Shown here piece after piece: positions 8,265-31,323 of a stretch of DNA of 64,000 nt (the first letter of the stretch is position 1; each line of letters starts with the position of its first letter). Source of the stretch: Gammaproteobacteria bacterium (GTDB lineage Bacteria; Pseudomonadota; Gammaproteobacteria; Eutrophobiales; Eutrophobiaceae); assembly GCA_004297165.1 (NCBI GenBank), contig SCUJ01000006.1, forward strand, positions 1,648,045-1,712,044. The letters are read 5' to 3'. The translations under genes were made by a program, and so were the position numbers. The notes below the pieces were generated by a model. It did no database searches. It saw nothing but the letters and a program-made list of their open reading frames with translations, and was not told the DNA's origin.

Positions 8265-8269
8265 TCCCG

Positions 8270-16683: not shown

Positions 16684-16965
16684 TCCAAGTTCACGGGCGG
16701 CGGCCGAGAAACTGGCGAGCCTCGCGACCTGGATGAAGGCCTTGATGTTTTGCAGGGTGTTCAGGATCAGCTACCTCAAAACGAGAAAACTGTTTGCCAA
16801 TTTTGACACGTTCTCGCGCTACGGATACCTGTCTATTATTACACACCCGCTGAAGGGGTTTTGCGACAATGTTGTATTTCGGTCGCGGCATTAAGATCAA
16901 ATCGAGGACATTCCCTCGCGGGGGGATTAATTCCTGACAGGTATATCCAGCATAGGGGGTTTGGT

Positions 16966-19551
16966 ATGTATCACATGTCAACACACAGGGGCATTACGCG
17001 TATCCTGGCAGCAAGCCTCACGCTATCCGGCCTGATCCTTCCTTCCATGACCAGCGCTCAGGGCACGGTCGAGGAGATTGTGGTCACGGCCCAGTTTCGT
17101 GAAGAAAACATCCAGGATGTGCCGCTATCCATCTCGGCGTTATCGGGGGATTCCCTGGAGTCGAAAAACGCCACGAGCGTGCTGGATATCGAAAAGTGGA
17201 CGCCCAACTTGCAGATCGATCAGCTAGGGTCAGGATGGGGGCCAACCATGGCGGTCAATGCGCGCGGCATGGGCCTGAACGATTTCAAGGCGGTCTTTGA
17301 GCCAGCGGTGCCGATTTACGTGGACGATGTCCTGTTGGGCCGGCCCACGGCTGGCAATCTGGATCTCCTGGACCTCGAGCGCGTGGAGGTCCTGCGTGGA
17401 CCCCAGGGAACCCTGTTCGGCAGCAACGCGGCGGGTGGCGTGATCCGACTGATCACCCGCAAGCCCACCGGCGACGGTCCCACGGTACTCGAAGCTACCA
17501 TGGGCAGCTACAACACCTTCAACACCCGTGGCTCCTTCGAAACCGCCCTCGGCGAGAACCTCTTCGGCCGCTTTTCCTTCTCCACCAAACGCCGGGACGG
17601 TTATGTCGATGTCCTGGACTTCACCTGTGAGATGATCCGTCGCGGCACGCCGCAACTGGCGGGTATCGGTGACGGCCTGGGCGCGGATGGCCCCGATGCC
17701 GGAACGGCACCGGATGTGGTTGTAGCGGGCAGTCCCGAGGATAATGCCTTTGGCATCCCCATACAGACCTCGCCCAACGGCACCAACGAAGGTTGCAAGG
17801 TGGACGAGATGGGGGACGAAGGCATCATTTCCGGAAGAGTGCAGGTCCGCTGGGCAGTGAGTGACTCCCTGGAATTCAATCTGGCCGGCGACGTGATGGA
17901 CATGGATCAGAAGAGCCCGCAGGATCATGTCGCCGATACGGCGGACCAAGCGTCGAACGGCGGCTTTGGTCTGGTTAATAGCAGTAACAATCTGGTGAAC
18001 ATCCCGAATTTCGGAGTACGGTACGATGATCGATTCGCGCCAAGCGATCCTTTCGTCAACTATTCCTCCTTCGTGGATCCCGGGATCACATTTGGCATCC
18101 TCGACCAGGCCGGAAACGCCACCGGACAAAAGATGCGCTATCCGGGGGGAATTCTGACACCCAACACCATGCAGGCAAGGCACTGGGGCGTGAGTGGCGC
18201 CATGGACTGGGCCATCAACGAGACCCTGAACGCCAGGGTGATCCTGGCCTACAGGGAGTTCGATTCCTACTTCGGCCGGGATTCCGATGGTTCACCCATT
18301 CCCCTCAATCATACCGTCGATACCTATAACGATGAGCAGTTCACAGTCGAGGGGCGCCTCAGCGGCCAACTCGCATTGGGATACGGATCGAGCAGTTGGA
18401 CCACAGACTGGACGGCGGGTATATTCTGGTATGACGCCTCGGACTACAACTCCAATATCTCGCTCCTGCACATGGGCGTCATCGGCGCGGGAGACATCGA
18501 TCGCATCGACGACCAGACCAACCAGAAACTGGGGATCTTCCTCCACACCATCACGGAGTTGACGGATCAATGGACCCTGACTGCCGGAGTGCGTTATACA
18601 TCTGATGAGAAGGACATCCTGCAGACGCGCATCAAGCGGATCCTGGAGAACAGGGCCTATGTACCGGCTGACTACCTGTTCCTGCCAACACCCCTGTCCC
18701 AGGACGCGGAACGGGTGACGCCCATGGCCAGTCTCTCCTACCAGTGGAACGACGACATCATGACCTACTTCACCTACCAGCAGGGTTTCCGCGGGGGTGG
18801 CTTCAATCCCAGACCGGCGAACCTGCTTACCATCGGCACATTCAACCCCGAGGAAGTGGAGAATTTCGAACTGGGCATAAAAAGCGACTGGCTGGATCAA
18901 CGTCTGCGCGTAAACGCCAATCTGTTCTACATGGATTATACGGACCTGCAATTGCCGGCCGTGGTGCTTGATCCACTCTCGGGGGTTCCCACCTTCCCGA
19001 CCAAAAATGCGGGTGAGGCTGACATGCTGGGCATCGAGATGGATTTCGTGGCCTATCCGACCGAACACATCTCCATCGATGGCACCTTTGGCTGGTTAGG
19101 ATTTTCCTATGTGGATCTCGGCTCCGCCGATCCGGCGGTTATCGCCAGCTTCCCCGGCGGCGGCGGCACCGCCATCGCCAATCCCTGCCTGGACTGCAGG
19201 CCGCTGCGTTCACCCGAGATAAGCGCCTCGCTGGGGGCGGCCTTCACCACCCCGATTAGCGGCGGGGAATGGGGGAATCTCACCCTGCGCGGCGATGTCT
19301 CCTACCAGTCGGAAACCAACTTCACGGCGAACAACTTTACCCGGGCCAACCAGAGCGCTTATTCCGTGTTCAACGCCCGCGCGACCTGGGTCTCGCCGAC
19401 CGAGGACTGGGAGCTGTCGGTCAGCGGCGCCAACCTGACTGACAAACTCTACAAGACCAGCGTGCTGGATTTCATGGACTCCCTGGGCGGCATCCAGTAC
19501 GGCTATGGTCTGCCGCGGATGGTATTTGGCAGCATCAAGAAACGCTTCTAG
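16966..19551 (+). CDS. TonB-dependent outer-membrane receptor
   Basis: Signal peptide, TonB box/plug (TVEEIVVTAQF…), C-terminal beta-barrel ending …KKRF; RBS aggggg before ATG 16966. Confidence 0.85.
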   Translation: MYHMSTHRGITRILAASLTLSGLILPSMTSAQGTVEEIVVTAQFREENIQDVPLSISALSGDSLESKNATSVLDIEKWTPNLQIDQLGSGWGPTMAVNARGMGLNDFKAVFEPAVPIYVDDVLLGRPTAGNLDLLDLERVEVLRGPQGTLFGSNAAGGVIRLITRKPTGDGPTVLEATMGSYNTFNTRGSFETALGENLFGRFSFSTKRRDGYVDVLDFTCEMIRRGTPQLAGIGDGLGADGPDAGTAPDVVVAGSPEDNAFGIPIQTSPNGTNEGCKVDEMGDEGIISGRVQVRWAVSDSLEFNLAGDVMDMDQKSPQDHVADTADQASNGGFGLVNSSNNLVNIPNFGVRYDDRFAPSDPFVNYSSFVDPGITFGILDQAGNATGQKMRYPGGILTPNTMQARHWGVSGAMDWAINETLNARVILAYREFDSYFGRDSDGSPIPLNHTVDTYNDEQFTVEGRLSGQLALGYGSSSWTTDWTAGIFWYDASDYNSNISLLHMGVIGAGDIDRIDDQTNQKLGIFLHTITELTDQWTLTAGVRYTSDEKDILQTRIKRILENRAYVPADYLFLPTPLSQDAERVTPMASLSYQWNDDIMTYFTYQQGFRGGGFNPRPANLLTIGTFNPEEVENFELGIKSDWLDQRLRVNANLFYMDYTDLQLPAVVLDPLSGVPTFPTKNAGEADMLGIEMDFVAYPTEHISIDGTFGWLGFSYVDLGSADPAVIASFPGGGGTAIANPCLDCRPLRSPEISASLGAAFTTPISGGEWGNLTLRGDVSYQSETNFTANNFTRANQSAYSVFNARATWVSPTEDWELSVSGANLTDKLYKTSVLDFMDSLGGIQYGYGLPRMVFGSIKKRF

Positions 19552-19580
19552 ACTGACGTCTTCATTTGGGTTACTTGTGA

Positions 19581-19614
19581 ACCCCCTGATGCGAATCAGG
19601 GGGTTTTTCTTTTA
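19581..19614 (+). terminator. Rho-independent terminator after the TonB receptor gene
   Basis: accccctgatgcgaatcagggggt hairpin followed by tttttctttt. Confidence 0.7.
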
Positions 19615-19647
19615 TCCTAGTAATTCTCCAATTTGAGGTTGCTTGTC

Positions 19648-21003
19648 ATGCGATCAGGTAATGGTGAAACGATAAGGGAGCCGGAACGTTCCATCCCGGT
19701 TTACGGAAGCACTGAGGTCCTCGTGGTCGGCGGGGGACCGGCCGGAGTCTGTGCCGCGATCGCCGCGGCGAGGGCCGGGGCCGAGGTCACGTTGGTGGAA
19801 CGCTATGGCTGTTTAGGCGGGTTGTCCACCGGCGGTCTCGTCATCTGGATCGACCGGATGACCGACTGGGAAGGCCGGTTGGTGGTCGGCGGGATCGGCA
19901 AGGAGATCACGGATGCCTGTGCGGCGGAGAAGGCCCTCATCGGCCCGCCGCCCGAACAATGGGGCTCGAAGGACCCGAAGCTCGCTGCCTACTGGGGCGT
20001 GCGCACCGCGGGTCACCGCGGCATCGTTAATTTTTCCCCCACGATCGATCCGGAAGTGCTGAAGCTGATCCTGAACGACATGGTGCGGGCAGCGAAGGTC
20101 AACGTGTTACTGCACAGTTGGGCGGTCGCCACTCTCTGCCGGGAGAATAAGGTCACCGGCGTCATCTTCGAAAGCAAGGAAGGCCGTTTCGCGATAAAAG
20201 CGGACATCACCATCGACTGTTCGGGTGATGGCGATATCTTCGCCAAGGCCGGGGCTGTATTTGAAAACGATTTTGACGGCGTCTCTGCTCACGCCCGGCT
20301 GAACACCAGTTTTCGCTTCGGCAACGTGGATATGCGCCGCTACCTGGATTTCCGGATGATCCATCCGGAACAGTACAGTACGCTCATGCGGGAGGCCAGC
20401 CACGAGGACGAGTGGCTTACGAATACAGCCTTTGTCACGCCCAATGACACCATCGCCCTTTTCCTGACTCCCAAATTCAGCGGCTATTCGGCCCTCAAGG
20501 TCGACGACCTCACCGAGGTGGAATTTCGCTCGCGGGACGTCATGCGTCAGGTGCTCGCCTGGTACCGAACCAGGATGCCGGGTTTTGAGCGGGCCTGGAT
20601 CCACGATACGGCCTCGCAGGTCGGCACCCGGCACAGCCGGCGTCTGAGAGGGATCGAGTGCGTGAGCAGCAAGGTGTGGCGGACGGACGGTTCCAGCGTG
20701 AACAGTATCGGCCTGTGCCCCGGACTCTCGCCGGAGTTCCCGACACTCGAGATCCCATATGGTGTGCTCTTGCCGGAGCGTATCGACGGCGTGCTGGCGG
20801 CAGGCCGCAATCTATCCTGTGATACGACTTCCCATGCCGCCTTAAGGGAGATCCCGGAATGCTGGGTGATGGGTCATGCTGCTGGAGTCGGAGCGGCGCT
20901 TGCAGTACATTCGAAGCAGACAGTTCGATCCGTGCCAATTGTGGAAATACAAAGTGAACTCGAACGCCAAGGTGCTATCGTCAGGCGGCAGGAGAGGAAA
21001 TAA
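19648..21003 (+). CDS. FAD-dependent oxidoreductase (PF12831-like, GG-x-STGG type)
   Basis: VLVVGGGPAGVCAAIAAARAGAEVTLVE Rossmann FAD motif near N-terminus; start at ATG 19648. Confidence 0.8.
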   Translation: MRSGNGETIREPERSIPVYGSTEVLVVGGGPAGVCAAIAAARAGAEVTLVERYGCLGGLSTGGLVIWIDRMTDWEGRLVVGGIGKEITDACAAEKALIGPPPEQWGSKDPKLAAYWGVRTAGHRGIVNFSPTIDPEVLKLILNDMVRAAKVNVLLHSWAVATLCRENKVTGVIFESKEGRFAIKADITIDCSGDGDIFAKAGAVFENDFDGVSAHARLNTSFRFGNVDMRRYLDFRMIHPEQYSTLMREASHEDEWLTNTAFVTPNDTIALFLTPKFSGYSALKVDDLTEVEFRSRDVMRQVLAWYRTRMPGFERAWIHDTASQVGTRHSRRLRGIECVSSKVWRTDGSSVNSIGLCPGLSPEFPTLEIPYGVLLPERIDGVLAAGRNLSCDTTSHAALREIPECWVMGHAAGVGAALAVHSKQTVRSVPIVEIQSELERQGAIVRRQERK

Positions 21004-21008
21004 AAAAA

Positions 21009-21036
21009 CAACGGCGGGTCGCTGGACCCGCCGTTG
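21009..21036. terminator. Bidirectional terminator hairpin between convergent genes (A-tract on + side gives U-tract for the minus-strand receptor gene)
   Basis: caacggcgggtc-gctg-gacccgccgttg perfect 12-bp stem; near-identical hairpin recurs at 27374-27399. Confidence 0.65.
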
Positions 21037-21062
21037 TTAAAGATACTACTTTTATCTGCTTA

Positions 21063-24000
21063 TTAGTATGATGCCTTGAAGCCCACGAAGAAGCGGCGAC
21101 CGATGGTGTCGTAATACCCACCGCTATATCCGCCCAGCGTAGGCAGGCTATAGACGCCAGCGCCGCGGCAGCCCGGCGCATCGCCACACAGAGCAGTCGT
21201 GCTGATGTCCGAACCGGGCGCATAGCCGGTTGTACTCGCAAAGTGGTTCGGTTCGATATCTAGCACGTTCGTGATTCCGCCGCGCAGCGCGAACGTCTCG
21301 TTGATGCGCCAGTTAAGTGACAGATCGAGGATATCGTAGCTATCGGTCTTGATCTCCGTGCTTGGCACATAGCCCAATGTGACACCCGGTGCGCCCGCGG
21401 TAACCGCTGCGTTATTCTCGATGATCGCCAGTTGTGACGCTTTTCCTGCGGACCATACAGATGGCAAATGGCGCCACCGCAAGGCGACGTTCCAGTCATC
21501 CAGCGAGTAGCTTAGGGAACTGAAAAACCGATATTCATAAGCCCCAGCCTGAGTCCCAGGGAGGTTTGGTCCCAGCGAACCCTTCCATTCGGTCTCTATG
21601 TCAAACGACGCGGGGGACTGCTTGGTGGTGTAGTAGTCCAGGATCGTGCCCTGCACGCCCAAGCCGAGCCGGCCGGGCACATCTACGCCCAGATCCGCGA
21701 TCTCGCTGGACCAGTTCAGCATAATGTCGAAGCCTGAGGTCTCGATCGTAGCCTGGTTATCATACGAGAGCGTGGTGCTCAGCGAGACGCCGGTGCTGGT
21801 CTGGTCGCGCGGCACCAACCGGCAACCCAGCGTCGCCGCCTGCTCCGCCGCCTCCGCCGCGGTGGTAACGGTACGCGAGCCGAAACAACGGTAATTGGCG
21901 TAATCGATCGAATACGTCATGATGGCGTCCTCGATGTTTACCATCCACCAATCAAGCACCAGATTCACACCGGAAAGCCATGGGTTCTCGAATGGCGAAG
22001 AGAGCACAAAACCGGCCGTCCAGGTGTCTGCCTTCTCCGGTCGCAGTTCCGGGTTACCCTGTTGCAGGATCCATGCAAATCCGCCCCCGCCCGCTTGAGC
22101 GACAGCGTTCGTTACGTTGTAGAACTGGTTCTCCGCCACGCTGCCGGGACCGCCCATCATCTGCTGGCAGATCAAATGCGTACTGTCCGCACCGGCTTGC
22201 GTCTGTCCCGGAGCAAGCGCGGGGAGCGACTCGGTTCCGCTAAGTGTCGGGTCGATGCCGCCCGTGAAGCCGCCGGCGCCGAAAGGCGCGTTCGCGCGCA
22301 CCGAACATGGATCCCCGAAACTGCCGCCGCCGGCTATAATCTCCTGCGGGTTCAGGAACAGCTCGCCCAGGTTCGGTGAGCGTGTGGCGCGGTTATATCC
22401 ACCGCGCAACCGCAGCCAGTCCTTGACCTCCCAACTGCCCAAGAGCTTGTACGTCCACTCCGAGTTGTCCGTCTCATCGTAAATCGAGTAACGGGCGCCC
22501 ATCTCAAGCTCGAACTTCTGCACATACGGCAGGTCTGCCGCCACCGGGATCAGCGCCTCTAAGTAGAAATCATCCGCCATCGTACTAGCATTCAGATAGC
22601 CTGTCGGATAAACGCCAATCACCTCGTCAGTAAAGGACCGCTCCGATTGCAGGACGTCGGGATAAAAGATTCCGTTGACCTTGCGGTGCTGGTATCCCAT
22701 GGCGCCACGGGCCTCCCCGGCCGGCAGGTCATAGACACCGCCTTGCAGGTTCACCTCCACGATATCCTGGCGCATCTCTGTACGTGTCTGCAGCACTGCG
22801 TAGATGGCATCGAGACAGTCCTGCGACATCGGCGCATCGCCAAGAAAATACGTGTCATAGAATCCCGACCCGCAAGTAAAATCTCCCGCGCCGAACGCCC
22901 CCCTGGCAGCATTCACATCCCTTCCCGCCGCTGGAGTGGCGGGCAAGTTATAGATCGGGCCGACCGTATAGACGATATTACCCGTGCCTGAAGCGCCGCG
23001 GCCGTAATCGGGAAGGTTGGTCAAGGCGCGATAACGGGCCAGTGACAGGTTGCCCTCGGCGACGTTATAGACGCCTGACTCCCCATGCGAGGCATACAGC
23101 TCGGCGGTCCAATCGCGGAACGGCAATTCGATGTTGACCCCACCTTCGACTTGCCAAGTCTCATTCGTGTTGTAGGTATTGCGCGGTGGCGTGCTGTACG
23201 ACGGATTCCAGTTCGGAATCCAGTCCGCCGCCTGCTGCGAGGCACTCACCGGCTGACCGTTCCACGTTCCAACGAGTGCCGTATTAGTCGTCGCCCGAGG
23301 ATTAGGCGCCCCACCGGGTAATGTTGCAGAACAACCCGACTGCCCTGTGAGGCAATAAGTTGGCCAGCCCCGGCTGTTTAGCAGGATGGCCAACTCTGTC
23401 GGCACCGGATGATAATTGACAGCAGTACCGATGAGAGTATTGCCAGCGGCAAGCGATACGTTCTTATTGGTAAAATTACTGACTCCAGCAGTCGTACTAC
23501 AACCTGTAGTATTGGCTTGGCAATACTTCCAGGCGCCCGAGCCTGTCGGGATGAAATTCGGGTTGGCGTATGCGGAGGGATTCGCCAGAACTGCGGTAAC
23601 CACCGCCGGATCCGCGAAGTTTAATGCCGGGTTCACGGGACTATCGAACGTCGGGTTATAGGGTACCGAGGTCTCCCAACCGAAGGTCACTGAAGTTGTC
23701 TGCAACAGTGTGCGCGTCCGGCTCTCCGCGAATCTCGCCCCGCCGAAAAGTTCGATTCGGTCGGTCAAGTCGAAGTTTCCCGAGGTGAAAATCGAATACC
23801 GATCCTGCGGAGCGCTCGCATATCCCAAAGTACTGTTCCACTTCAGACCATCGAAAACCGTATTGTTGGTCGGGTCCGTGGCATCGAGAGTTTTCTGTAA
23901 TGCGTAAGTCTGCCCGTCCACAGTGATTTTGTGACGGGATTGTCCGCGGGCGCTGCCCAAGGCAAAGATGGTGCTGTCCGGGTTAATATAGTAGGTGCGG

Positions 24001-24935
24001 GAGTTGCCCACACCGGAGCCCGGAGCAACGTCAAAGTATACCGTCGAACCGGATACGGTAGCTGAGGATCTGCCAAAGGGGCTGCCGCCGCCGAACAACA
24101 CGTTAACAGCAGGCTGAGTCGGGCAATTTTGGTTACAGAAATACGCTCCGACGCCCTTAAGGCCGGTCACGGATGCCGAACCGGTTCGATCGGATGCCCA
24201 GAGGTCCGTATAGATGTCCCGCTCGATCTGGGCGGCTTCCTCCCTCTCGTAGCGTTCCAAACCAACCGTGACATTACCTCGGTCATCGGCTAGATTGGCG
24301 CCTAACGAGGCTGAGATGCGGCTTTCCGTGCCATCGCCAGCCTCGGTGATACCATACTGGCCATCGAACTCGAAGCCCTCGTAATCCTTCCTGGTTATGA
24401 AGTTGGTCACGCCACCCACCGCATCCGCGCCATACACGGAAGAGGCGCCCCCGGTAATCGTCTCCACACGCTGAAGCAGGGCTGAAGGGATGCTGTTGGC
24501 ATCCGTCACCATAAGTGGGTTTACCGGGACAGGTCGATGTCCGTCGAGTAACACCAAGCTTCGGTTGGGGCCAAAGCCGCGAAGCGAGATGGAGGCGATA
24601 CCCACTGAATTCGTCGGGGTGATCTGCACATCGCCTTGCGTAGTCACGGGCGAGGCGGCCGGGTTATATTCCGGCAACTGATTCAGATAAGACTCGACGT
24701 TCAAGCCGGTCTGTTGTTCGAACGCCTCGGACTCGATGGTTACGATTGGGCTGTTCGAGACATAGTCGCGGCGGACGATACGGCTACCGGTGACCGTGAC
24801 CTCCTCCAGATCTTCTCCTTCATCCTGCGCCTGGACGACGACGCCCAAGGAAAGCATGACGAAAGAGGATATTAACGCTTGATAGTACAAAAACCGGCAC
24901 TGACGAAGACAGCAGATGTACAAAGACTTGAACAT
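21063..24935 (-). CDS. Giant TonB-dependent receptor (about 1290 aa), tandem paralog A
   Basis: Signal peptide (…VVVQAQDEG), TonB box EEVTVTGSRIV, plug domain about 90% identical to paralog B, long barrel ending …GFKASY; start at second ATG with GGGGG RBS. Confidence 0.85.
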   Translation of the reverse strand: MFKSLYICCLRQCRFLYYQALISSFVMLSLGVVVQAQDEGEDLEEVTVTGSRIVRRDYVSNSPIVTIESEAFEQQTGLNVESYLNQLPEYNPAASPVTTQGDVQITPTNSVGIASISLRGFGPNRSLVLLDGHRPVPVNPLMVTDANSIPSALLQRVETITGGASSVYGADAVGGVTNFITRKDYEGFEFDGQYGITEAGDGTESRISASLGANLADDRGNVTVGLERYEREEAAQIERDIYTDLWASDRTGSASVTGLKGVGAYFCNQNCPTQPAVNVLFGGGSPFGRSSATVSGSTVYFDVAPGSGVGNSRTYYINPDSTIFALGSARGQSRHKITVDGQTYALQKTLDATDPTNNTVFDGLKWNSTLGYASAPQDRYSIFTSGNFDLTDRIELFGGARFAESRTRTLLQTTSVTFGWETSVPYNPTFDSPVNPALNFADPAVVTAVLANPSAYANPNFIPTGSGAWKYCQANTTGCSTTAGVSNFTNKNVSLAAGNTLIGTAVNYHPVPTELAILLNSRGWPTYCLTGQSGCSATLPGGAPNPRATTNTALVGTWNGQPVSASQQAADWIPNWNPSYSTPPRNTYNTNETWQVEGGVNIELPFRDWTAELYASHGESGVYNVAEGNLSLARYRALTNLPDYGRGASGTGNIVYTVGPIYNLPATPAAGRDVNAARGAFGAGDFTCGSGFYDTYFLGDAPMSQDCLDAIYAVLQTRTEMRQDIVEVNLQGGVYDLPAGEARGAMGYQHRKVNGIFYPDVLQSERSFTDEVIGVYPTGYLNASTMADDFYLEALIPVAADLPYVQKFELEMGARYSIYDETDNSEWTYKLLGSWEVKDWLRLRGGYNRATRSPNLGELFLNPQEIIAGGGSFGDPCSVRANAPFGAGGFTGGIDPTLSGTESLPALAPGQTQAGADSTHLICQQMMGGPGSVAENQFYNVTNAVAQAGGGGFAWILQQGNPELRPEKADTWTAGFVLSSPFENPWLSGVNLVLDWWMVNIEDAIMTYSIDYANYRCFGSRTVTTAAEAAEQAATLGCRLVPRDQTSTGVSLSTTLSYDNQATIETSGFDIMLNWSSEIADLGVDVPGRLGLGVQGTILDYYTTKQSPASFDIETEWKGSLGPNLPGTQAGAYEYRFFSSLSYSLDDWNVALRWRHLPSVWSAGKASQLAIIENNAAVTAGAPGVTLGYVPSTEIKTDSYDILDLSLNWRINETFALRGGITNVLDIEPNHFASTTGYAPGSDISTTALCGDAPGCRGAGVYSLPTLGGYSGGYYDTIGRRFFVGFKASY

Positions 24936-25147
24936 TGAAATTCCCCCCATGGATTGGATCCGTCTCAATCCGGCTTCACTGATAAGCCGAACCAAGATTC
25001 TTTATTACTTCTAGGAGGGATACTACAAAATCCAGTGCTCGGTTGTAAAGCGCTCTTAATTAAAGGGGTCGGAGTGGCGAATCTTGTATTCGCCATGGGA
25101 TAGAGGGCGATCACGAGGATCGCCTCTACGGTTCAGTTCGCGATGTA

Positions 25148-26776
25148 TCACCGCCATTCATCCACTGAAATTGTTTTCAAGTAGGTACCGCTCAGGATCT
25201 TCCACATGGCCCCGGTCTCGCCACCGACCACCACCACGCTGATATCCTCGGGTCGGAACATCTTGAGCGGCGTACCCGGTTCTGCCTTGAGAAAACTCGC
25301 ATACGGCTCGATCCCTGCGACCGCCTGCGGCAGTAGCAGGGTTTGTACCCACTGGTTATCCCAATATTCTCGTGCCGGGAGCAGACTGTTCTCCACGCAC
25401 CACTGGATAAGCTTCTGTTTAGTGTCAAAGCCCCTGTCGACAAAGCCTCTTGCAACCAGAGGGTCCAGCGCCAACACCGGACCGCTATAGGGGTCGCAGG
25501 CCGCGAGTGAACGGCGGAATTTTTCCTCCCAGGTCTCGCGGGGGCCTCCACCGAACTGGATATACCAGCCGCCCATGAACAGGCTCACGGCGCTATCTTC
25601 GGCCTTGTGTCCGTGTTGCACATGAAAGGGTTCCCAGGGGCTGCGTTCCTCGTTTTCCGCGAAGACCGCGCTGTAGGAATGCACGTTTCCCTGCGAGCCC
25701 ATGAAGCTCTCGCTTGGAACCGAGCCTCCCTGGAGATTCTGTGACAAGAGACCGTAGGCGCGGCCGATCGTAGCATTGGCGTGGTTGTAGGGCCCCATGG
25801 CCCCGATGCCGGAGTTCATGTTGATCTCGTTGCGCACCGGCCCGTTGACCATGGCAATCGTCGCCTGCGAGGTCGTACTGCTGGAACGCGCCGTGACGCA
25901 GGAGGCGGCCAGCGCCAGGATGACCGGAAAATATTCAGGCCGGGCCCCGGCCATGACCGCGTTCACGGCGACCTTTTCCACGGTGTATTCCCAGAGCTCG
26001 CGAAACCGGGCGGGTTGCAGGCGGCCCACCACTTTATCCGGGGCATGACTCGTGGCCTTGAGCATTGCCTCGACCCTGGCCTCGGTCGGCAGGACGATGG
26101 GCAGGAAATCCGTCCAGCGGTTCTCCTCGAAACGCTGATACAGGTTATCCTCCGTGTCGGGATCCAGCAGCCTTGGCGTGGAGCGATCGAAATCCATTCC
26201 CGCCTCATCCTCCTGCCGCAAAACGTCGGTGAGACCGTCGATCAGGCGTTTGATGAAGGGACCACCCTCGACCGCATCATCTCCTTCAATGTAGGCGCGC
26301 AGCTCCCCGGCGGATCGACCGACGACAGGTTGCGGTACAAAGGCCTGGCGCAGGGTGGGCAGGCCGTTGACCCTGGCGACGGAACGAACGAGCCGGGTGA
26401 AGACGTGGGTATGGACGGAGACCGTGGGTATGCCGTCCGCCTCCAATGCAATTGCTAGCCCGACGACCGTCGGGCTGCAAGAACTTCAAAGCCCCACGCC
26501 GAGGATAGCCGCATCACCCTCCGCCACGATTATTTCACGCATCGCCGGATCGTCGACCCAGCTTTCATGGGGTTTGATTGTCCGTACGATAACCCGCGGC
26601 AGGTGCTGTTCGAACCAGTCACGCAACTGATTCATGAACACCTCTGAATTGTCGAACAAACAATCCACAAGGTACAGGATCTTCCCGTCCAGGGCCTCGA
26701 GTCTGGGGGCAAGTCGTTTGCCAGAGACTTTCGGTGGATACCCTCTCGGGTCATGGACTCGAATTAATGAAGACAT
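25148..26776 (-). CDS. Putative selenoprotein, uncharacterised family (copy 2): single in-frame TGA at 26486-26488 read as selenocysteine in U-S-S-C motif; no signal peptide
   Basis: ORFs 26486..26776 and 25148..26446 are in the same frame separated by one TGA; downstream ORF begins with TTG; conserved peptide VGL-U-SSCSPTVVG; hairpin AGCCCGACG-GT-CGTCGGGCT 10 nt after UGA (+ coords 26457-26476). Confidence 0.6.
26457..26476 (-). ncRNA. Candidate bacterial SECIS-like hairpin downstream of the in-frame UGA of selenoprotein copy 2
   Basis: Perfect 9-bp inverted repeat containing GGTCGTCGGG core shared with copy 1. Confidence 0.45.
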
Positions 26777-26797: not shown

Positions 26798-27310
26798 TTA
26801 CCTGGCCCGTTTCACATAAATGAACCCGCCTCTGTCCTCGGCTGTCAGTTTGTAGCCGCCACCGAAGATCGTCGGGTAGATTCGCACCCGCTGTCCCACC
26901 GTCAGTTCATAACGCCGGGTGACATGTTGCTGCCAAATTTGGCCGTTCTGCAGAGTAACGATCCAGCCATCCGGACGTTTTTCCAGCGCGGCTATCGTGT
27001 CTACCAATTCAGTCGTTTCTTCAGCTTCCGAATTTCTCTGGCGCGCCATCTCCTGCCGTAGCCTCTGGTTCTCAATCATCAGGCGCTGCGCATCTGCCGC
27101 TTGTGGCTGATTATCTACGAGACTGTCATAACAAGCAGCGCGAGCCGCGATGACCTGGATCGCACGGCACCGATTGAGGGCTTGATCGCTACCTTGTGCG
27201 ACAGCTTCCGTCCAAGTTATTGCAGCAGCGACCAGCAGGAAGGTAGAGGGTATATTCGAACAAAATATTGATGGTTTTTTTTGATGACGTTGTGGTCTTT
27301 GCGGCTTCAT
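26798..27310 (-). CDS. Hypothetical secreted/periplasmic protein with coiled-coil segment
   Basis: 170 aa; hydrophobic signal-like N-region; 21 nt upstream of selenoprotein copy 2 on the same strand. Confidence 0.45.
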   Translation of the reverse strand: MKPQRPQRHQKKPSIFCSNIPSTFLLVAAAITWTEAVAQGSDQALNRCRAIQVIAARAACYDSLVDNQPQAADAQRLMIENQRLRQEMARQRNSEAEETTELVDTIAALEKRPDGWIVTLQNGQIWQQHVTRRYELTVGQRVRIYPTIFGGGYKLTAEDRGGFIYVKRAR

Positions 27311-27373: not shown

Positions 27374-27399
27374 AACGGCGGGTCGATTGACCCGCCGTT
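27374..27399 (-). terminator. Terminator hairpin after giant TonB receptor paralog B
   Basis: aacggcgggtc-gatt-gacccgccgtt; T-rich tract follows on minus strand; same stem as 21009-21036. Confidence 0.65.
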
Positions 27400-27425: not shown

Positions 27426-30400
27426 TTAGTACGAGACTTTCAACCCTACAAAGAAGCGGCGACCCAGGGTGTCGTAGTAACCACCATTAAAACCACCCTG
27501 TGTATACAGACTGCGTCCGTTCGGGTTTATACAACCAGGCGCTCCGCCACAGACCGCCTGCAGAGAGGCAGAGTCAGGATATTGCTCAGGTGTATAACCC
27601 GCTGTGCTGCCGACATTTTCCGGTTCTGTATCGAGCAGGTTAGTTATACCTGCTCGAAACGTAAACGTCTCGTTGTAATTCCAGTTGGCTGCCAAATCGA
27701 AGATATTGTAACTGTCAGTCTCTATTTCCGTAGTTGGCGTGTAACCCAGCAGTAGACCCGGTGTACCTGCCGAAACAGCAGTATTATTCTCGATGATGGC
27801 CATCTGGGAAGCGTAACCAGCAGTCCAAACCGACGGCAGATGACGCCAGCGCATCGTTACACTCCAGTTGTCCAGGTTATAACTAAGCGCACCGAATATG
27901 CGATAGTCATAGGCCCCGGCGTTGGTTCCGGGCAGAGTCGGGCCCAAGGAGCCGGTCCAATCTGTTTCCACATCGAAGGATGCGACTGATTGCTTCGTGA
28001 TATATTCGTTCAAGATCGTCGTCTGCAGATTGAAACCCAAGCCACCTGGCACATTAATGCCAAGATCCTGGAGCTGAGCCGACCAGTTGAACGCGATATC
28101 AAAACCAGAGGTATCAATCGTGGCCAAATTATCGTAGATCAGCGTGGAAGTAAGACCTGATCCATTGCGTTGGTCGCGGGGAAGGTTTTGACAGGCTGGA
28201 GTACTAGCCTGCGCTGCCGCTTCTGCTGGTGTACTCACGATCGTGCCAAAGCATTGAAAGTTGGCATAATCGACTGACCGCGTCATGATGGCATTATTGA
28301 TTTCCACCATGTACCAGTCGAACGACAGCGTGATGCCTGAAAGCCATGGATTCTCCAACGGCGAGCTAACAACAAACCCGGCTGTCCAGGTGTCCGCCTT
28401 TTCAGGACTCAGGGCAGTGTTCCCTTCCTGCAGTACCCAGGCGAAACCACCTCCAGCCGCAGCAACGGCATCAAGTCCTGAACGATAGAAATAGTCAGCG
28501 CCAGCAGTACCCATCAAAGCTTCACAAATCAATTGAGAGCTATTCGCGCCTGCCAGTGTTTGACCAGGCGCCAGCGTCGGAGCCGTTTCACTGGGATTCG
28601 TCACAATCGGGTCAGTCGCAAGAGATGTTCCGCCGGCACCGAAGGGAGAATTACTGCGGATAGCGCATGGGTCACCGAAGTTACCACCAGCGCCGAATAC
28701 TTCCTGCTTGTTCAGGAATAATTCACCCAGGTTGGGCGACCGAGTGGCCTTGTTGAAGCCACCACGCAGGCGCAACCAGTCTTGTGCCTCCCAGTTGCCC
28801 AGGATCTTCCAAGTCCATGCCGTGTCACCCGTCTCTTCATAATCCGAATAGCGGGCGCCAGTTTCTATTTCGAATTTCTGCATGTATGGCAGATCCGCCA
28901 CCACCGGTATTAATGCCTCGACATAGAAATCGTCGGCCGTTGTGGTTTCATCCAGATATCCGGTGGGATAGACGCCTACCACTTGATCGGTGAAGGAATC
29001 TTCCGACTGAAGGATATCAGGATTGAACTTGCCATTAACATTGCGGTGCTGGAACCCAATCGCGGATCGAAGTTCGCCGGCCGGGAGGTCATACACCCCG
29101 CCCTGGAGGTTCACTTCCACGATATCCTGGGCCATTTCCGTGCGGGTTTGCAGAGTGGCATTGATGGCATTGAAGCAGTCTTCCGACAGCGGTTGATCGC
29201 CCCCAAAGTACGTATCGTAGAAACCTGAAGTACATTCGAAATCACCGACACCGAAGGCCGGTCGGATCGAATTTACTGTTTCGACTCCATTTTCGGAAAC
29301 TACGGTGTAAGTCTGGTTACCAGTACCAACTGCGCCACGACCATAGTCAGGCAGATTGGTCAGGGCACGGTAACGACTCAATGACAGGTTACCGCCAGCG
29401 ACGTTATAGGTGCTGGATTCGCCGTGGGAGAAATAGACTTCACCAGTCCAGTCGCGGAATGGCAACTCGAAATCCACGCCGCCTTCAACCTGCCAAGTCT
29501 GGATAGTGTTGTAGGTGTTACGTGGCGGCAGGCTGGTATCGGGATTCCACTGCGGTTGCCAACGTGCAGCCGGGCCGGTATTAGCAACAGGGGTACCTGC
29601 CAAAGCCGGGTCGCGTGTCACTACTGTGAAATCACCCTGGAACGGCAGCGGGCAGGCAAAGGTGCCATACAGACAGTACGTATGTACGTTCCTGCTGTTC
29701 AGCAACATGGCAAGTTGCGCCGGTACGGGATGCCCTGCGCCGGGACTCCCGGTCGGGATGAAGCCCGGATTTGCGTACGCTGCGGGGTTGGCCGCGACAA
29801 GCTGCATCAGAGCGACATCATCATAATTGAGCGTCGGGTCGATCGGACTGTCTGTCGTTGGATTATAAGGAACACTTGTTTCCCAACCACTGATGGCATT
29901 GGTACCGAACAAAATAGTGCTAGTCTTGCTTTCCGCATAGTTCACTTTAGCAAATACCGAGACCGTATCTGTTACATCAAAGTGGCTCGATGCAAAGGCA
30001 GAATAACGGTCTTGTGGCGCACTGGCGTAAGCCTTGGTGTTATTCCATTTAATTCCATCCATGGTTCTCAAACCGGCCGCATCACTGTTATCCAGAGCGG
30101 TACGGTGGGCATATTGCAAGCCATCGAAAGTGCCTTTGAATTTGGACTGACCCAAAGGTGTCTGGAACGGGAACCCGGCTGTCCAAATGGTGCCATCCGC
30201 ATTGAACTGTATATCAACGTAGGTTGGCATTTCACCTGTAGCAGGGGCGAAACCAGCGAAGAACGCGCTGGGATTCTGGCCACCGAACAAGCCCCTTAGA
30301 GCCGCATTGGATGGGCAATTGGGGTCACAACTGTACGCATTTGTACCCTGGATGAAAATGAAGGAACCTGCTGTATCCGGATCGGCCCAGTAGTCCTTGT

Positions 30401-31127
30401 AAATATCCCTTTCTATCTGCATGGCCTCTTTCCTTTCATAGCGCTCGAGACCAAGAGTTACGTTGCCGCGATCATCAGCAAAATTCGCCCCGAACAAGGC
30501 GGAGATACGGCTTTCCTCGCCGTCTCCTGCCTCCGATATACCGTACTGGCCATCGAACTCGAAGCCCTCGTAATCCTTCCGCAGAATAAAGTTGGTCACG
30601 CCACCCACCGCATCAGCACCATACACAGACGAGGCGCCGCCGGTGATTGTTTCCACACGCTGTATAAGAGCTGAGGGGACGCCGTTGATATCGGTTACCA
30701 TCAGGGCGTTGACCGGGACCGGCCGCTTACCGTCAACCAGGGCCAAACTGCGGTTAGGGCCGAAGCCGCGCAATGAGATGGAGGCGATACCCACTGAATT
30801 CACTGGTGTGATCTGCACATCGCCTTGGGTGGTAACCGGCGAGGCGGCCGGATTGTATTCCGGCAACTGGTTCAGGTAGGACTCAACATTCAGCCCGGTC
30901 TGCTGTTCGAATGCCTCGGACTCGATGGTCACGATCGGGCTGTTCGACACGTAGTCGCGGCGGACGATACGGCTACCGGTAACCGTAACCTCCTCCAATT
31001 CGCCTCCTGCTTGATCCTGCGCCTGGGCACCGCTGCCCAGGGAAAACAACGATAACGCGGATATCAGCGCCGGGCGCGGCAATAACCGGCTCAGACGGAG
31101 TGTGCGAAAGTACAAAGACCTTATCAT
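27426..31127 (-). CDS. Giant TonB-dependent receptor (about 1230 aa), tandem paralog B
   Basis: Signal peptide (…GSGAQAQDQ), TonB box EEVTVTGSRIV, plug and barrel; C-terminus …VGLKVSY. Confidence 0.85.
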   Translation of the reverse strand: MIRSLYFRTLRLSRLLPRPALISALSLFSLGSGAQAQDQAGGELEEVTVTGSRIVRRDYVSNSPIVTIESEAFEQQTGLNVESYLNQLPEYNPAASPVTTQGDVQITPVNSVGIASISLRGFGPNRSLALVDGKRPVPVNALMVTDINGVPSALIQRVETITGGASSVYGADAVGGVTNFILRKDYEGFEFDGQYGISEAGDGEESRISALFGANFADDRGNVTLGLERYERKEAMQIERDIYKDYWADPDTAGSFIFIQGTNAYSCDPNCPSNAALRGLFGGQNPSAFFAGFAPATGEMPTYVDIQFNADGTIWTAGFPFQTPLGQSKFKGTFDGLQYAHRTALDNSDAAGLRTMDGIKWNNTKAYASAPQDRYSAFASSHFDVTDTVSVFAKVNYAESKTSTILFGTNAISGWETSVPYNPTTDSPIDPTLNYDDVALMQLVAANPAAYANPGFIPTGSPGAGHPVPAQLAMLLNSRNVHTYCLYGTFACPLPFQGDFTVVTRDPALAGTPVANTGPAARWQPQWNPDTSLPPRNTYNTIQTWQVEGGVDFELPFRDWTGEVYFSHGESSTYNVAGGNLSLSRYRALTNLPDYGRGAVGTGNQTYTVVSENGVETVNSIRPAFGVGDFECTSGFYDTYFGGDQPLSEDCFNAINATLQTRTEMAQDIVEVNLQGGVYDLPAGELRSAIGFQHRNVNGKFNPDILQSEDSFTDQVVGVYPTGYLDETTTADDFYVEALIPVVADLPYMQKFEIETGARYSDYEETGDTAWTWKILGNWEAQDWLRLRGGFNKATRSPNLGELFLNKQEVFGAGGNFGDPCAIRSNSPFGAGGTSLATDPIVTNPSETAPTLAPGQTLAGANSSQLICEALMGTAGADYFYRSGLDAVAAAGGGFAWVLQEGNTALSPEKADTWTAGFVVSSPLENPWLSGITLSFDWYMVEINNAIMTRSVDYANFQCFGTIVSTPAEAAAQASTPACQNLPRDQRNGSGLTSTLIYDNLATIDTSGFDIAFNWSAQLQDLGINVPGGLGFNLQTTILNEYITKQSVASFDVETDWTGSLGPTLPGTNAGAYDYRIFGALSYNLDNWSVTMRWRHLPSVWTAGYASQMAIIENNTAVSAGTPGLLLGYTPTTEIETDSYNIFDLAANWNYNETFTFRAGITNLLDTEPENVGSTAGYTPEQYPDSASLQAVCGGAPGCINPNGRSLYTQGGFNGGYYDTLGRRFFVGLKVSY

Positions 31128-31323
31128 CTTGTTATCCCCCATGGGTTTGTAGGCAATTCGTGCAGGCTTCGCGTGGAAGCCGGACAACTGTGTTGTAATA
31201 TTATCCCGTCGGATATTACGAAATCAAGCATGTTGATACAACGTGTCTTAAAAACAACACGACATAACACATTGTTACTAGCGATTGTTGCTCAACTTCG
31301 ACCAGTGTGCCACTTTGAGAACA

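What the first reader, a model, noticed from the sequence alone, without database searches (positions are those of the whole stretch)
16861..31187. Selenoprotein embedded in a TonB-receptor uptake locus with LysR regulator and FAD oxidoreductase
Selenoprotein copy 2 sits on the same strand between two giant TonB-dependent receptors, 21 nt downstream of a small secreted protein. The locus also contains a third TonB receptor, a LysR regulator, an IlvD/EDD dehydratase and an FAD-dependent oxidoreductase. This architecture resembles a substrate uptake-and-catabolism island. It suggests the UxxC selenoprotein acts on an imported compound, possibly as a reductase. The substrate is unknown.
Basis: inference. 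Interest (0 to 1): 0.6.

Follow-up and report, generated by a model that had tools for sequence, protein, structure and literature searches.

The report
Known selenoprotein family beside inserted receptors
The gene is a real selenocysteine-containing enzyme of a widespread family whose function is unknown, but the two giant outer-membrane receptor genes beside it were inserted recently in this lineage, and the family's usual partner is a thioredoxin-reductase-like gene.

Summary
Window 25148-26776 (-) encodes a 542-aa protein with an in-frame UGA (26488-26486, motif U-S-S-C). A hairpin with a GGUC loop follows it, of the kind that directs selenocysteine insertion (SECIS). The gene lies 21 nt after a 170-aa secreted protein and between two TonB-dependent receptors (TBDRs) of 1253 and 1310 aa.

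The protein has an N-terminal UGSC redox domain (Pfam PF24696) fused to a conserved ~380-aa domain. That domain has no Pfam family and no PDB fold match. UGSC selenoproteins have been known since 2005-2008, but their function is not.

In 161 homologous loci outside the close clade, TBDRs occur once per 212 kb, an unremarkable density. A thioredoxin-reductase-like gene is next to the selenoprotein in 41 of 167 loci.

Close relatives (75-86% DNA identity) have an uninterrupted operon: MetE-fold protein, MetE-like protein, selenoprotein. It sits opposite a syringate O-demethylase (DesA) gene and near an FAD oxidoreductase and an ordinary TBDR, mostly with an IlvD-like dehydratase and an MFS transporter. 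The two giant TBDRs are 62%-identical paralogs, each with its own promoter-like site and terminator hairpin. They are present only in the window's closest relatives.

Best reading: a cytoplasmic reductase that depends on the selenol/thiol pair, recruited into an aromatic or organic-acid catabolic island.

The parts
25148..26776 (-). Selenoprotein copy 2. UGSC redox domain (aa ~7-161, Sec97-S-S-Cys100) fused to a conserved ~380-aa C-terminal domain of unknown family. No signal peptide.
   Evidence: AF2 model of the Cys homolog P0122 has pLDDT 93.8. No PDB fold or sequence match.
26486..26488 (-). In-frame UGA read as selenocysteine.
   Evidence: In homologs this column is TGA 161 times and Cys 25 times.
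26452..26480 (-). Bacterial SECIS hairpin. Core stem 26476-26469 pairs with 26464-26457; GGUC loop at 26468-26465, 18-21 nt after the UGA.
   Evidence: MFE -33.6 kcal/mol, z -3.85. Loop in register in 144/145 unique Sec homologs. Pair 3 is G-C 121, C-G 12, A-U 5, U-A 4. Lost in Cys forms.
26798..27310 (-). 170-aa protein with a signal-peptide-like N-terminus, 21 nt upstream of the selenoprotein. Restricted to this lineage and linked to giant TBDRs.
   Evidence: Only 7 homologs in 5.8 billion proteins. Found in L171 and L169 next to the selenoprotein, and in L172 between two giant TBDRs with no selenoprotein.
27426..31187 (-). Giant TBDR (1253 aa). Inserted with the 170-aa gene between the MetE-like gene and the selenoprotein gene.
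   Evidence: Plug and barrel domains. Absent from L001, L005 and L088, where the MetE-like gene abuts the selenoprotein. Promoter-like site at 31227-31200.
27374..27399 (-). Terminator-like hairpin (11 bp) right after TBDR1253 and before the 170-aa gene.
   Evidence: Same core (AACGGCGGGTC…GACCCGCCGTT) as the hairpin after TBDR1310.
21063..24995 (-). Giant TBDR (1310 aa), a 62%-identical paralog of TBDR1253. Most of the first ~250 aa are nearly identical.
   Evidence: Absent from L169, where the selenoprotein is followed directly by the FAD oxidoreductase. Promoter-like site at 25049-25020.
21007..21038 (-). Terminator-like hairpin (14 bp plus a T run) after TBDR1310.
31324..32478 (-). MetE-like protein (Meth_synt_2, 384 aa) with conserved His250, Cys252 and Cys348. 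In relatives it is the gene immediately upstream of the selenoprotein.
32504..33613 (-). 369-aa protein of an unannotated family with a MetE-like TIM-barrel fold. His244, Cys246, Glu343 and Cys344 are invariant. First gene of the conserved operon.
   Evidence: No Pfam or PDB sequence hit. AF2 pLDDT 94.1. Top 11 Foldseek hits are all MetE, E 1.5e-8, TM ~0.6. 1618 homologs.
33797..35239 (+). Syringate O-demethylase DesA (tetrahydrofolate-dependent, LigM/DesA type), divergent from the operon. The gene call in L168 corresponds to 33845-35239.
   Evidence: NF047633 873 bits against a cut-off of 800. PDB LigM 5x1i, E 4.7e-162.
19633..21003 (+). FAD-dependent oxidoreductase (PF12831), convergent with the selenoprotein unit. 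Conserved near the selenoprotein in the clade and in L029, L034 and L071.
16861..19551 (+). Ordinary TBDR (896 aa). This is the TBDR that is conserved in the close clade (77-86% identical orthologs).
15838..16767 (-). LysR-type regulator, divergent from TBDR896. It has no canonical start codon.
   Evidence: Ortholog beside the TBDR in L005.
14067..15752 (-). IlvD/EDD-family dehydratase, below every NCBIfam equivalog cut-off. Directly downstream of the selenoprotein in L001-L004, L088 and L029; upstream of it in L097.
6522..8264 (+). Selenoprotein copy 1. Paralog, 42% identical, UGA at 6909-6911, motif U-S-T-C, own SECIS. Start codon uncertain.

Best explanation
**What the gene is (shown).** Window 25148-26776 (-) encodes a cytoplasmic two-domain selenoenzyme. 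It belongs to the UGSC family in its long form, a UGSC domain plus a ~380-aa C-terminal domain. Sec97 is inserted at UGA under the direction of a GGUC-loop SECIS hairpin inside the coding sequence.

**How it most likely works (inferred).** The Sec97-x-x-Cys100 pair cycles between a selenenylsulfide and a selenol/thiol. Electrons come from NAD(P)H through a thioredoxin-reductase-type flavoprotein. In many genomes that flavoprotein is encoded next door. In this 64-kb window none is present, so it would have to be encoded elsewhere in the genome. The reduced centre then delivers electrons to a small molecule held by the conserved C-terminal domain. The protein would therefore be a reductase, or a redox-dependent lyase or isomerase.

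**Local context (shown).** In this gammaproteobacterial clade the gene is the third gene of an operon behind two MetE-fold proteins that have the residues expected for zinc binding. The operon is divergent from the syringate O-demethylase gene desA. Nearby are a PF12831 flavoprotein, an IlvD-like dehydratase and transporters. This is a catabolic island for an imported organic acid.

**Likely substrate class (inferred).** A lignin-derived methoxylated aromatic acid is the most probable class.

**The giant TBDRs (shown).** The two giant TBDR genes and the 170-aa secreted-protein gene are a lineage-specific outer-membrane cassette. It was inserted into this operon recently and partly duplicated. 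These genes are not conserved partners of the selenoprotein family.
For: **Sec decoding.**
- TGA aligns with Cys in 25 homologs.
- The hairpin has z -3.85.
- 144/145 unique Sec forms have the GGUC loop in register and 135/145 have the four pairs next to the loop intact. In Cys forms the figures are 5/23 and 0/23.

**Family and architecture.**
- PF24696, E 1.5e-25.
- More than 7600 homologs, mostly gene calls truncated at the UGA.
- Full-length Cys forms of 545-570 aa exist.
- The AF2 model has pLDDT 93.8, with the CxxC at the N-terminus of the helix after strand 3 of a Rossmann-like domain.

**Redox partner.**
- A TrxR-like gene (CATC motif, TIGR01292 283-312 bits) is in 41/167 loci, or 1 per 41 kb of flank. 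31 are within 300 bp and 39/41 are on the same strand. The loci come from several phyla.

**Catabolic context.**
- DesA passes its equivalog cut-off, 873 against 800, and matches LigM at E 4.7e-162.
- The 369-aa protein has the MetE fold. Its homologs sit beside Rieske, LigB or ring-hydroxylase genes.
- The operon of the 369-aa protein, the MetE-like protein and the selenoprotein is kept in L001-L005, L088 and L171. In L001-L004 and L088 an IlvD-like gene follows.
- The combination of the selenoprotein with IlvD, the FAD oxidoreductase, MFS and sometimes a TBDR recurs in L029, L034, L071 and L097.

**Insertion of the giant TBDRs.**
- Synteny breaks at 31330/26758 and at 25073/20988.
- The two are 62%-identical paralogs.
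- Both have a promoter-like site and share the same terminator hairpin core.
- L172 has a giant TBDR, the small protein and a second giant TBDR with no selenoprotein.
Against: - No biochemical datum exists for any family member.
- The C-terminal domain has no Pfam, PDB-sequence or Foldseek-PDB match, so the substrate and chemistry are guesses.
- No TrxR-like gene and no selA, selB or selD lies in this window.
- Some family members have lost both redox residues (for example P0126 LGGAT and P0139 HMDTL). The C-terminal domain can therefore work without the U/CxxC centre.
- The gene order giant TBDR, small protein, selenoprotein, giant TBDR is kept in a second genome (L171). The small-protein gene overlaps the selenoprotein start in L169. 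In this lineage the cassette could therefore be functionally coupled rather than a neutral insertion.
- The aromatic or lignin reading rests on neighbours only.
Confidence: 0.6

Rival explanations
1. The selenoprotein and the flanking TBDRs form one functional unit. The giant TBDRs import a specific compound, the 170-aa periplasmic protein assists, and the selenoprotein reduces that compound in the cell.
For: - All four genes are on the same strand. The small-protein and selenoprotein genes are 21 nt apart and overlap in L169.
- The order is kept in L171.
- Unrelated lineages have a TBDR adjacent (L034 at 216 bp, L057, L035, L094) or about 3.5 kb upstream on the same strand (L097: TBDR, IlvD, MFS, selenoprotein).
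- TBDRs are known to import lignin-derived aromatics (DdvT, PMC6874591).
Against: - TBDR density near the family is 1 per 212 kb, an unremarkable density.
- The giant TBDRs are missing from the 75-86% relatives. TBDR1310 is missing from a relative with 90% DNA identity.
- A terminator hairpin separates TBDR1253 from the small-protein and selenoprotein genes, and each TBDR has its own promoter-like site.
- The cassette exists without the selenoprotein in L172.
- The first giant-TBDR slot is only 62% identical between the window and L171, while the selenoprotein is 94% identical.
Confidence: 0.2
2. A general thiol-redox or antioxidant protein, analogous to the AhpF/AhpC pair, working with its TrxR-like reductase. 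It would have no pathway link to the surrounding catabolic genes, and the local context would be an accident of rearrangement.
For: - The TrxR-like neighbour also resembles AhpF homologs.
- Most loci at 50-72% identity share no other context.
- The gene often sits next to selA, selB or selD, as if it were a main user of selenium in those genomes.
Against: - The large, strongly conserved C-terminal domain has invariant polar residues (WTD, PTE, VNGP, IGRA, GN, AENEE). This argues for a specific substrate.
- Catabolic neighbours recur: MetE-like in 12 loci, MFS 16, Amidohydro_2 9, the FAD oxidoreductase 8, IlvD 6 and luciferase-like monooxygenase 14.
- The operon position is stable in the close clade.
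Confidence: 0.15
3. A one-carbon or methyl-handling role. The two MetE-fold proteins, which have the residues expected for zinc binding, move the methyl group released by DesA (as 5-methyl-tetrahydrofolate) onto a thiol or selenol acceptor. The selenoprotein is that acceptor or regenerates it.
For: - The operon runs MetE-fold protein, MetE-like protein, selenoprotein, and is divergent from desA.
- MetE-like genes recur near the selenoprotein in distant phyla (L040, L045, L046, L082, L112, L120).
- MetE chemistry is methyl transfer to a zinc-activated thiolate (established knowledge).
Against: - MetE-like neighbours occur in only 12/167 loci.
- No link to tetrahydrofolate or homocysteine was shown.
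- The TrxR-like partner fits disulfide or selenenylsulfide cycling better than methyl transfer.
Confidence: 0.08
4. The UGA is an ordinary stop, so there are two separate genes (96 aa and 432 aa) or a pseudogene.
For: Gene callers split it this way in nearly all database entries.
Against: - The reading frame and its conservation continue across the UGA.
- Cys codons occupy the same column in 25 homologs.
- The SECIS hairpin covaries in Sec forms only.
Confidence: 0.01

Closest known systems
UGSC-containing selenoprotein family (Zhang & Gladyshev; PF24696, NCBIfam NF041046), including the 'UGSC/Unknown_1' fusion reported from the Global Ocean Sampling metagenomes (PMC2398784)
   Same: - The N-terminal domain matches PF24696 above its threshold.
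- The UxxC motif is in the same place, with Sec/Cys interchange.
- NCBI names close homologs 'UGSC family (seleno)protein'.
- The function is unknown in the literature.
   Different: - The motif is U-S-S-C, not U-G-S-C.
- The score is below the NF041046 cut-off (64.6 against 125).
- The protein is 542 aa with a ~380-aa extra domain, against ~150 aa for the model.
- Whether that extra domain is the published 'Unknown_1' could not be checked, because the figure is held only as an image.
AhpF/AhpC and TrxB/thioredoxin-type two-component disulfide reductase systems
   Same: A TrxR-family flavoprotein with a CxxC motif is encoded next to a protein with a redox-active U/CxxC pair, on the same strand.
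   Different: - The acceptor is not a thioredoxin or peroxiredoxin fold. It is a Rossmann-like domain fused to a large unknown domain.
- The partner is absent from this window.
Lignin-derived aromatic uptake and catabolism loci of Sphingobium sp. SYK-6 (DesA/LigM O-demethylases; TBDR DdvT with an MFS transporter, PMC6874591)
   Same: - A DesA equivalog is present, and the gene near copy 1 is lignostilbene-dioxygenase-like.
- The locus combines a TBDR, an MFS transporter (in relatives) and catabolic genes.
   Different: - No selenoprotein, MetE-fold pair, IlvD-like dehydratase or PF12831 flavoprotein is part of the described SYK-6 pathways (own knowledge).
- The substrate here is not identified.
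Cobalamin-independent methionine synthase MetE and 'core-MetE' single-barrel relatives
   Same: - The 384-aa protein hits Meth_synt_2.
- The 369-aa protein has the MetE barrel fold, with His-x-Cys and Glu-Cys motifs at the positions expected for the zinc ligands.
   Different: - Both are far below the methionine-synthase equivalog cut-offs.
- The 369-aa family has no Pfam model.
- Their substrates are unknown.

Membership tests
UGSC family (seleno)protein | Match to the Pfam UGSC domain model above its gathering score | tested here: met
   PF24696: 90.7 bits against 25, residues 7-161.
UGSC family (seleno)protein | Match to the NCBIfam NF041046 equivalog above its curated cut-off | tested here: not met
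   64.6 bits against 125. This is a divergent, fused subfamily.
UGSC family (seleno)protein | U/C-G-S-C redox motif | tested here: inconclusive
   The UxxC spacing and position are kept, but the motif is U-S-S-C here. It is U-S-T-C in copy 1 and in most homologs.
UGSC family (seleno)protein | Small stand-alone protein of about 150 aa | tested here: not met
   542 aa with a ~380-aa conserved C-terminal domain. This probably corresponds to the 'UGSC/Unknown_1 fusion' of PMC2398784, but that was not verifiable.
Bacterial SelB-dependent selenoprotein | In-frame UGA aligned with Cys in homologs | tested here: met
   161 TGA and 25 Cys codons at the column.
Bacterial SelB-dependent selenoprotein | SECIS stem-loop shortly downstream of the UGA, with a conserved G-containing loop at its tip | tested here: met
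   8-bp stem and GGUC loop 18-21 nt after the UGA. Covariation is seen in Sec forms only. Rfam gave no match at gathering threshold in the window.
Bacterial SelB-dependent selenoprotein | selA, selB, selC and selD present in the genome | not testable with these tools
   None lies in the 64-kb window. selA, selB or selD are adjacent to homologs in 10-12 other loci.
TonB-dependent receptor | N-terminal Plug domain plus C-terminal beta-barrel | tested here: met
   PF07715 and PF00593 in all three.
   8 TBDRs in 1.70 Mb of flanks from 161 non-clade loci. The giant TBDRs are absent from L001, L005 and L088, and TBDR1310 is absent from L169. Only a TBDR896 ortholog is kept, at 4-9 kb, in the close clade.
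Syringate O-demethylase DesA (gene at 33797-35239) | NCBIfam equivalog NF047633 above its cut-off | tested here: met
   873.2 bits against 800. LigM structures match at E 4.7e-162.
MetE (cobalamin-independent methionine synthase) superfamily, for the 369-aa protein | MetE-type TIM barrel with His-x-Cys … Cys zinc site | tested here: met
   The top 11 Foldseek hits are MetE, E 1.5e-8, TM ~0.6. H244, C246, E343 and C344 are invariant in 47 sequences. There is no Pfam hit and hhalign gives only 8%, so membership is at fold level only.
Thioredoxin-disulfide reductase TrxB (for the recurrent neighbour in other loci) | TIGR01292 equivalog above its cut-off | tested here: not met
   283-312 bits against 343. 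It is a TrxR-like paralog with a CATC motif.
Dihydroxy-acid dehydratase IlvD (gene at 14067-15752) | NCBIfam equivalog cut-off | tested here: not met
   TIGR00110: 464.6 against 618; NF002068: 495 against 644. It is an IlvD/EDD family member of unknown specificity.

The most novel reading that the evidence does not exclude
The long UGSC selenoproteins are a widespread family of reductases of unknown function that depend on a TrxR-like flavoprotein. In this clade the enzyme would work with two MetE-fold zinc enzymes next to DesA, in an undescribed step of methoxylated (lignin-derived) aromatic catabolism. Outer-membrane import would be supplied by a fast-evolving cassette of a giant TBDR plus a small periplasmic protein.
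Probability: 0.15. Interest if true: 0.75.

Novelty: new member of a known kind. Interest (0 to 1): 0.4.

Why it matters

This locus does not show that they act on TBDR-imported compounds. The comparison of 167 loci does give concrete leads:
- a dedicated TrxR-like electron donor;
- recurrent MetE-fold, IlvD-like, PF12831 and Amidohydro_2 partners;
- a link to DesA-type aromatic O-demethylation in one clade.

Cultured carriers exist for experiments: Hyphococcus luteus, Rhizobium puerariae, Neorhizobium sp. T6_25 and Pseudonocardia acaciae.

The locus is also a clean example of self-contained TBDR cassettes inserting into, and duplicating within, a cytoplasmic operon.

Tried and rejected
- **Domain fusions as clues.** Longer family members carry only UGSC, apart from one Cu_amine_oxidN1 and one weak CD225 match below its cut-off.
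- **Rfam scan of the window.** No hits, so no riboswitch lies ahead of the TBDRs.
- **tRNA-Sec.** No tRNA gene lies in the window.
- **Machinery and partner genes in the window.** No TrxR-like, SelA, SelB or SelD homolog, and none of the relatives' MFS, AraC or 381-aa genes.
- **The + strand ORF 15832-16806 as LysR.** It has no Pfam hit; the regulator is on the minus strand.
- **hhalign of the 369-aa family against the MetE-like family.** Only 8% probability with shallow alignments. The relationship was settled by structure instead.
- **The 432-aa gene next to a 369-aa-protein homolog in L173.** It is not a selenoprotein relative.
- **Check of 'Unknown_1' in PMC2398784.** The figure is held as an image and the sequence files are cut.
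- **Handing in the full-length protein with Cys in place of Sec.** The part after the UGA and the Cys homolog P0122 were used instead.

Full report

| Gene | Coordinates | Notes |
|---|---|---|
| Giant TBDR | 27426-31187 (-) | 1253 aa, Plug + barrel |
| Small protein | 26798-27310 (-) | 170 aa, signal-peptide-like N-terminus |
| Selenoprotein | 25148-26776 (-) | 543 codons, one in-frame TGA at 26488-26486 |
| Giant TBDR | 21063-24995 (-) | 1310 aa |
| PF12831 FAD oxidoreductase | 19633-21003 (+) | |
| TBDR | 16861-19551 (+) | 896 aa |
| LysR regulator | 15838-16683 (-) | not the overlapping + strand ORF |
| IlvD/EDD dehydratase | 14067-15752 (-) | |

The gap between the small gene's stop and the selenoprotein ATG is exactly 21 nt. 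The stated span misses the genes that turn out to be the conserved partners. These are a MetE-like gene (31324-32478), a 369-aa gene (32504-33613) and a divergent gene at 33797-35239.

**The UGA is a selenocysteine codon.**
- The sequence around it reads GVGL-U-SSC-SP.
- The N-terminal 160 residues match Pfam UGSC (PF24696, E 1.5e-25).
- Nine nucleotides after the UGA an 8-bp stem carries a GGUC loop (z -3.85).
- Across the window and 167 homologous loci, tblastn reads through this position. The codon is TGA in 161 matches and TGC or TGT in 25.
- Among 145 unique TGA sequences, 144 have GGUC in the same register and 135 keep all four pairs next to the loop.
- One stem pair occurs as G-C 121, C-G 12, A-U 5 and U-A 4. 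These are compensatory changes at synonymous codon positions.
- Among 23 unique Cys-form sequences, none keeps those four pairs and only 5 have GGTC.

This is as good as comparative evidence for a bacterial SECIS gets. The window holds a second copy: about 6522/6636 to 8264 (+), 42% identical, UGA at 6909-6911, motif U-S-T-C, with its own hairpin.

**What the protein is.**
- It has more than 7600 relatives in the 5.8-billion-protein set. Nearly all are called as ~435-aa fragments that start after the UGA. A few are named 'UGSC family (seleno)protein' by NCBI.
- An exhaustive search found 4186 representatives, including full-length Cys or non-Cys forms of 545-570 aa.
- The alignment shows a strongly conserved C-terminal domain with the motifs WTDxLPIVLPTE, AVNAVMAG, VNGP, ANAxIGRA, GN and AENEE-SPW. 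It has no conserved Cys.
- Some members have lost the redox motif altogether.
- An AlphaFold model of the Cys homolog P0122 (53% identical) is confident, with pLDDT 93.8 and pTM 0.92. It shows a Rossmann-like N-terminal domain with the CxxC at a helix N-terminus, followed by a mixed alpha/beta C-terminal domain.
- The family itself is known. [quoted passage not shown]
- A 2026 review still lists the function as uncharacterised (PMC13188914).

I collected 167 loci:
- relatives found by exact protein look-up;
- 80 species-representative genomes;
- 80 metagenome contigs.

They span Gamma-, Alpha- and Betaproteobacteria, Acidobacteriota, Chloroflexota, Actinomycetes, Rokubacteria, Binatia and Latescibacterota. 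A TBDR profile built from the TBDRs at hand found receptors only in the close clade (L001-L005) and in L007, L032, L034, L035, L057, L094 and L097. That is 8 genes in 1.70 Mb of flanking DNA from 161 non-clade loci, or one per 212 kb. By my own estimate this is about a genome-average density.

Unbiased clustering of all neighbouring ORFs gave a different top partner. It is a ~314-aa thioredoxin-reductase-like flavoprotein:
- Pyr_redox_2 family, CATC motif;
- TIGR01292 score of 283-312 bits, just under the TrxB cut-off of 343;
- present in 41 loci, 31 within 300 bp of the selenoprotein, 39 on the same strand;
- one per 41 kb of flank.

The other recurrent neighbours were:

| Neighbour | Loci |
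|---|---|
| MFS transporter | 16 |
| Luciferase-like monooxygenase | 14 |
| MetE-like | 12 |
| SelA | 12 |
| SelB | 10 |
| Amidohydro_2 | 9 |
| PF12831 oxidoreductase | 8 |
| IlvD-like | 6 |

**The local history.**
- Relatives at 75-86% DNA identity (L001-L005, L088) carry an uninterrupted operon of the 369-aa protein, the MetE-like protein and the selenoprotein. In L001-L004 and L088 an IlvD-like gene follows.
- The operon is divergent from a GcvT-family gene. It is convergent with the PF12831 oxidoreductase, an MFS transporter and an ortholog of TBDR896.
- Against these relatives the window has a 4.6-kb insertion between 31330 and 26758, holding TBDR1253 and the 170-aa gene.
- Against L169 (90% DNA identity, selenoprotein 94%) the window has a 4.1-kb insertion between 25073 and 20988, holding TBDR1310.
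- The two giant TBDRs are 62% identical overall, and most of the first ~250 residues are nearly identical.
- Each is preceded by a promoter-like site and followed by a strong hairpin with the same core sequence, at 27374-27399 and 21007-21038.
- The 170-aa protein has only seven homologs in the whole protein collection. One lies between two giant TBDRs with no selenoprotein (L172).
- A second genome (L171) has the window's full order, but its identity to the window is mosaic:

| Gene | Identity, L171 vs window |
|---|---|
| TBDR896 | 99.7% |
| TBDR1310 | 99% |
| Selenoprotein | 94% |
| MetE-like | 95% |
| Small protein | 83% |
| First giant-TBDR slot | 62% |

The giant TBDRs and the small protein therefore behave as a mobile, fast-evolving outer-membrane cassette that landed in the operon. 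The arrangement is real: Logan contigs L168 and L170 are 100% identical to the window.

**What the conserved neighbours say.**
- The divergent gene at 33797-35239 is a syringate O-demethylase. DesA equivalog NF047633 scores 873 bits against a cut-off of 800, and LigM structures match at E 4.7e-162.
- The 384-aa protein is a distant MetE relative with His250, Cys252 and Cys348 conserved.
- The 369-aa protein has no Pfam or PDB sequence match. Its model (pLDDT 94.1) hits only MetE structures at the top (E 1.5e-8, TM ~0.6), and His244, Cys246, Glu343 and Cys344 are invariant.
- Homologs of the 369-aa protein lie beside Rieske oxygenase, LigB and ring-hydroxylase genes.
- Copy 1 of the selenoprotein sits next to an Amidohydro_2 gene, a lignostilbene-dioxygenase-like gene and GSTs.
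- The combination of the selenoprotein with IlvD-like, PF12831 and MFS genes recurs in L029, L034, L071 and L097. In L097 the order is TBDR, IlvD, MFS, selenoprotein on one strand.

The 'uptake and catabolism island' idea is therefore reasonable for this clade. The most probable substrate class is an aromatic or organic acid, probably lignin-derived and methoxylated. This rests on neighbours only.

**Mechanism proposed.**
- Shown: UGA recoding by a SECIS; the two-domain architecture; cytoplasmic location, judged from the absence of a signal peptide; and the neighbour statistics.
- Inferred: the Sec-x-x-Cys centre is reduced by a TrxR-type flavoprotein using NAD(P)H, and passes electrons to a substrate bound by the C-terminal domain.
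- Rivals: a functional unit coupled to the TBDRs (0.2); a general redox-defence pair (0.15); a methyl-handling role with the MetE-fold proteins and DesA (0.08); an ordinary stop codon (0.01).

**Verdict.**
A redox enzyme in a catabolic island is plausible. A conserved link to TBDRs is not supported.
- The gene is a new member of a known, uncharacterised selenoprotein family.
- The useful by-products are the TrxR-like partner, the unannotated MetE-fold family and the TBDR cassette insertions.

Noticed in passing
window 6522-8264 (+), UGA at 6909-6911: Selenoprotein copy 1 (42% identical, U-S-T-C, own GGUC hairpin). In-frame upstream ATGs at 6522, 6564 and 6582 would add a signal-peptide-like segment (MLIICCMLCGHSIQA|QD). 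A GTG at 6636 would give a cytoplasmic protein like its relatives. The start and the location of the protein are unresolved.
   Followed up: partly
window 4888-11415: The genes around copy 1 look like lignin-fragment catabolism. They are a PQQ glucose/sorbosone dehydrogenase (4888-6411), Amidohydro_2 (8222-9142, overlapping the end of copy 1), a lignostilbene-alpha,beta-dioxygenase-like gene (9248-10714; 573 bits, below the 800 cut-off) and a GST (10558-11415). Amidohydro_2 is a recurrent neighbour of the family (9 loci).
   Followed up: partly
window 15838-16767 (-): The LysR gene has no canonical start. Where the L005 ortholog reads ATG-ACA-ATG, the window reads CTG-ATC-CTG, directly after a TAG. 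The first ATG/GTG/TTG start cuts off 24 positions of the HTH domain. This means either a CTG or ATC start, or an inactivated regulator.
   Followed up: partly
window 32504-33613 (-), and loci L173-L176: The 369-aa protein represents a large unannotated family (1618 hits, all 'hypothetical', no Pfam). It has a MetE-type barrel and conserved His-x-Cys and Glu-Cys motifs. In other genomes it lies beside Rieske oxygenase, LigB and ring-hydroxylase genes.
   Followed up: yes
L171 compared with window 16798-33323: Identity between two genomes with the same gene order is mosaic. TBDR896, the FAD oxidoreductase and TBDR1310 are 98-99.7% identical. The selenoprotein, MetE-like protein and 369-aa protein are 94-96%. 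The small protein is 83%. The first giant-TBDR slot is only 62%. This suggests recombination or allele replacement at the receptor slot.
   Followed up: partly
window 21007-21038 and 27374-27399 (-); 24362-24955 vs 30551-31147: Both giant TBDR genes end with hairpins that share the core AACGGCGGGTC…GACCCGCCGTT. Their 5' ~600 nt are 79.5% identical at DNA level, against ~66% for the rest of the genes. This points to duplication followed by gene conversion. The short-read assemblies (L168, L170) break exactly at this repeat.
   Followed up: partly
loci L007, L009, L017, L026, L030, L032, L041, L057, L069 and others: Family members often lie within a few kb of selA, selB or selD (SelA in 12 loci, SelB in 10, SelD in about 5). 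In those genomes this protein may be a principal user of the selenocysteine machinery.
   Followed up: partly
L063 and L018: One homologous locus is filed under an archaeal MAG (Candidatus Nitrosocosmicus) and one under a 'Klebsiella pneumoniae' MAG. Both look like binning contamination rather than real hosts.
   Followed up: no
window 26001-34000: G+C drops to 0.54-0.55 across the stretch from the selenoprotein to the 369-aa gene, against 0.60-0.64 for most of the window. This is compatible with horizontal acquisition of the whole operon, not only of the TBDR cassette.
   Followed up: no
window 51414-52283 (+) and 54146-54973 (-); 54001-56000: Two PEP-CTERM proteins flank the lowest-G+C stretch of the window (0.49). 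A LytTR response regulator lies nearby (50418-51170). These are unrelated to the finding.
   Followed up: no
protein P0271: The 170-aa protein is 100% identical to 'hypothetical protein EPO31_10180' of an uncultured Gammaproteobacteria MAG (1.78-Mb contig). The nearest named relatives are unclassified Gammaproteobacteria and Steroidobacteraceae.
   Followed up: partly
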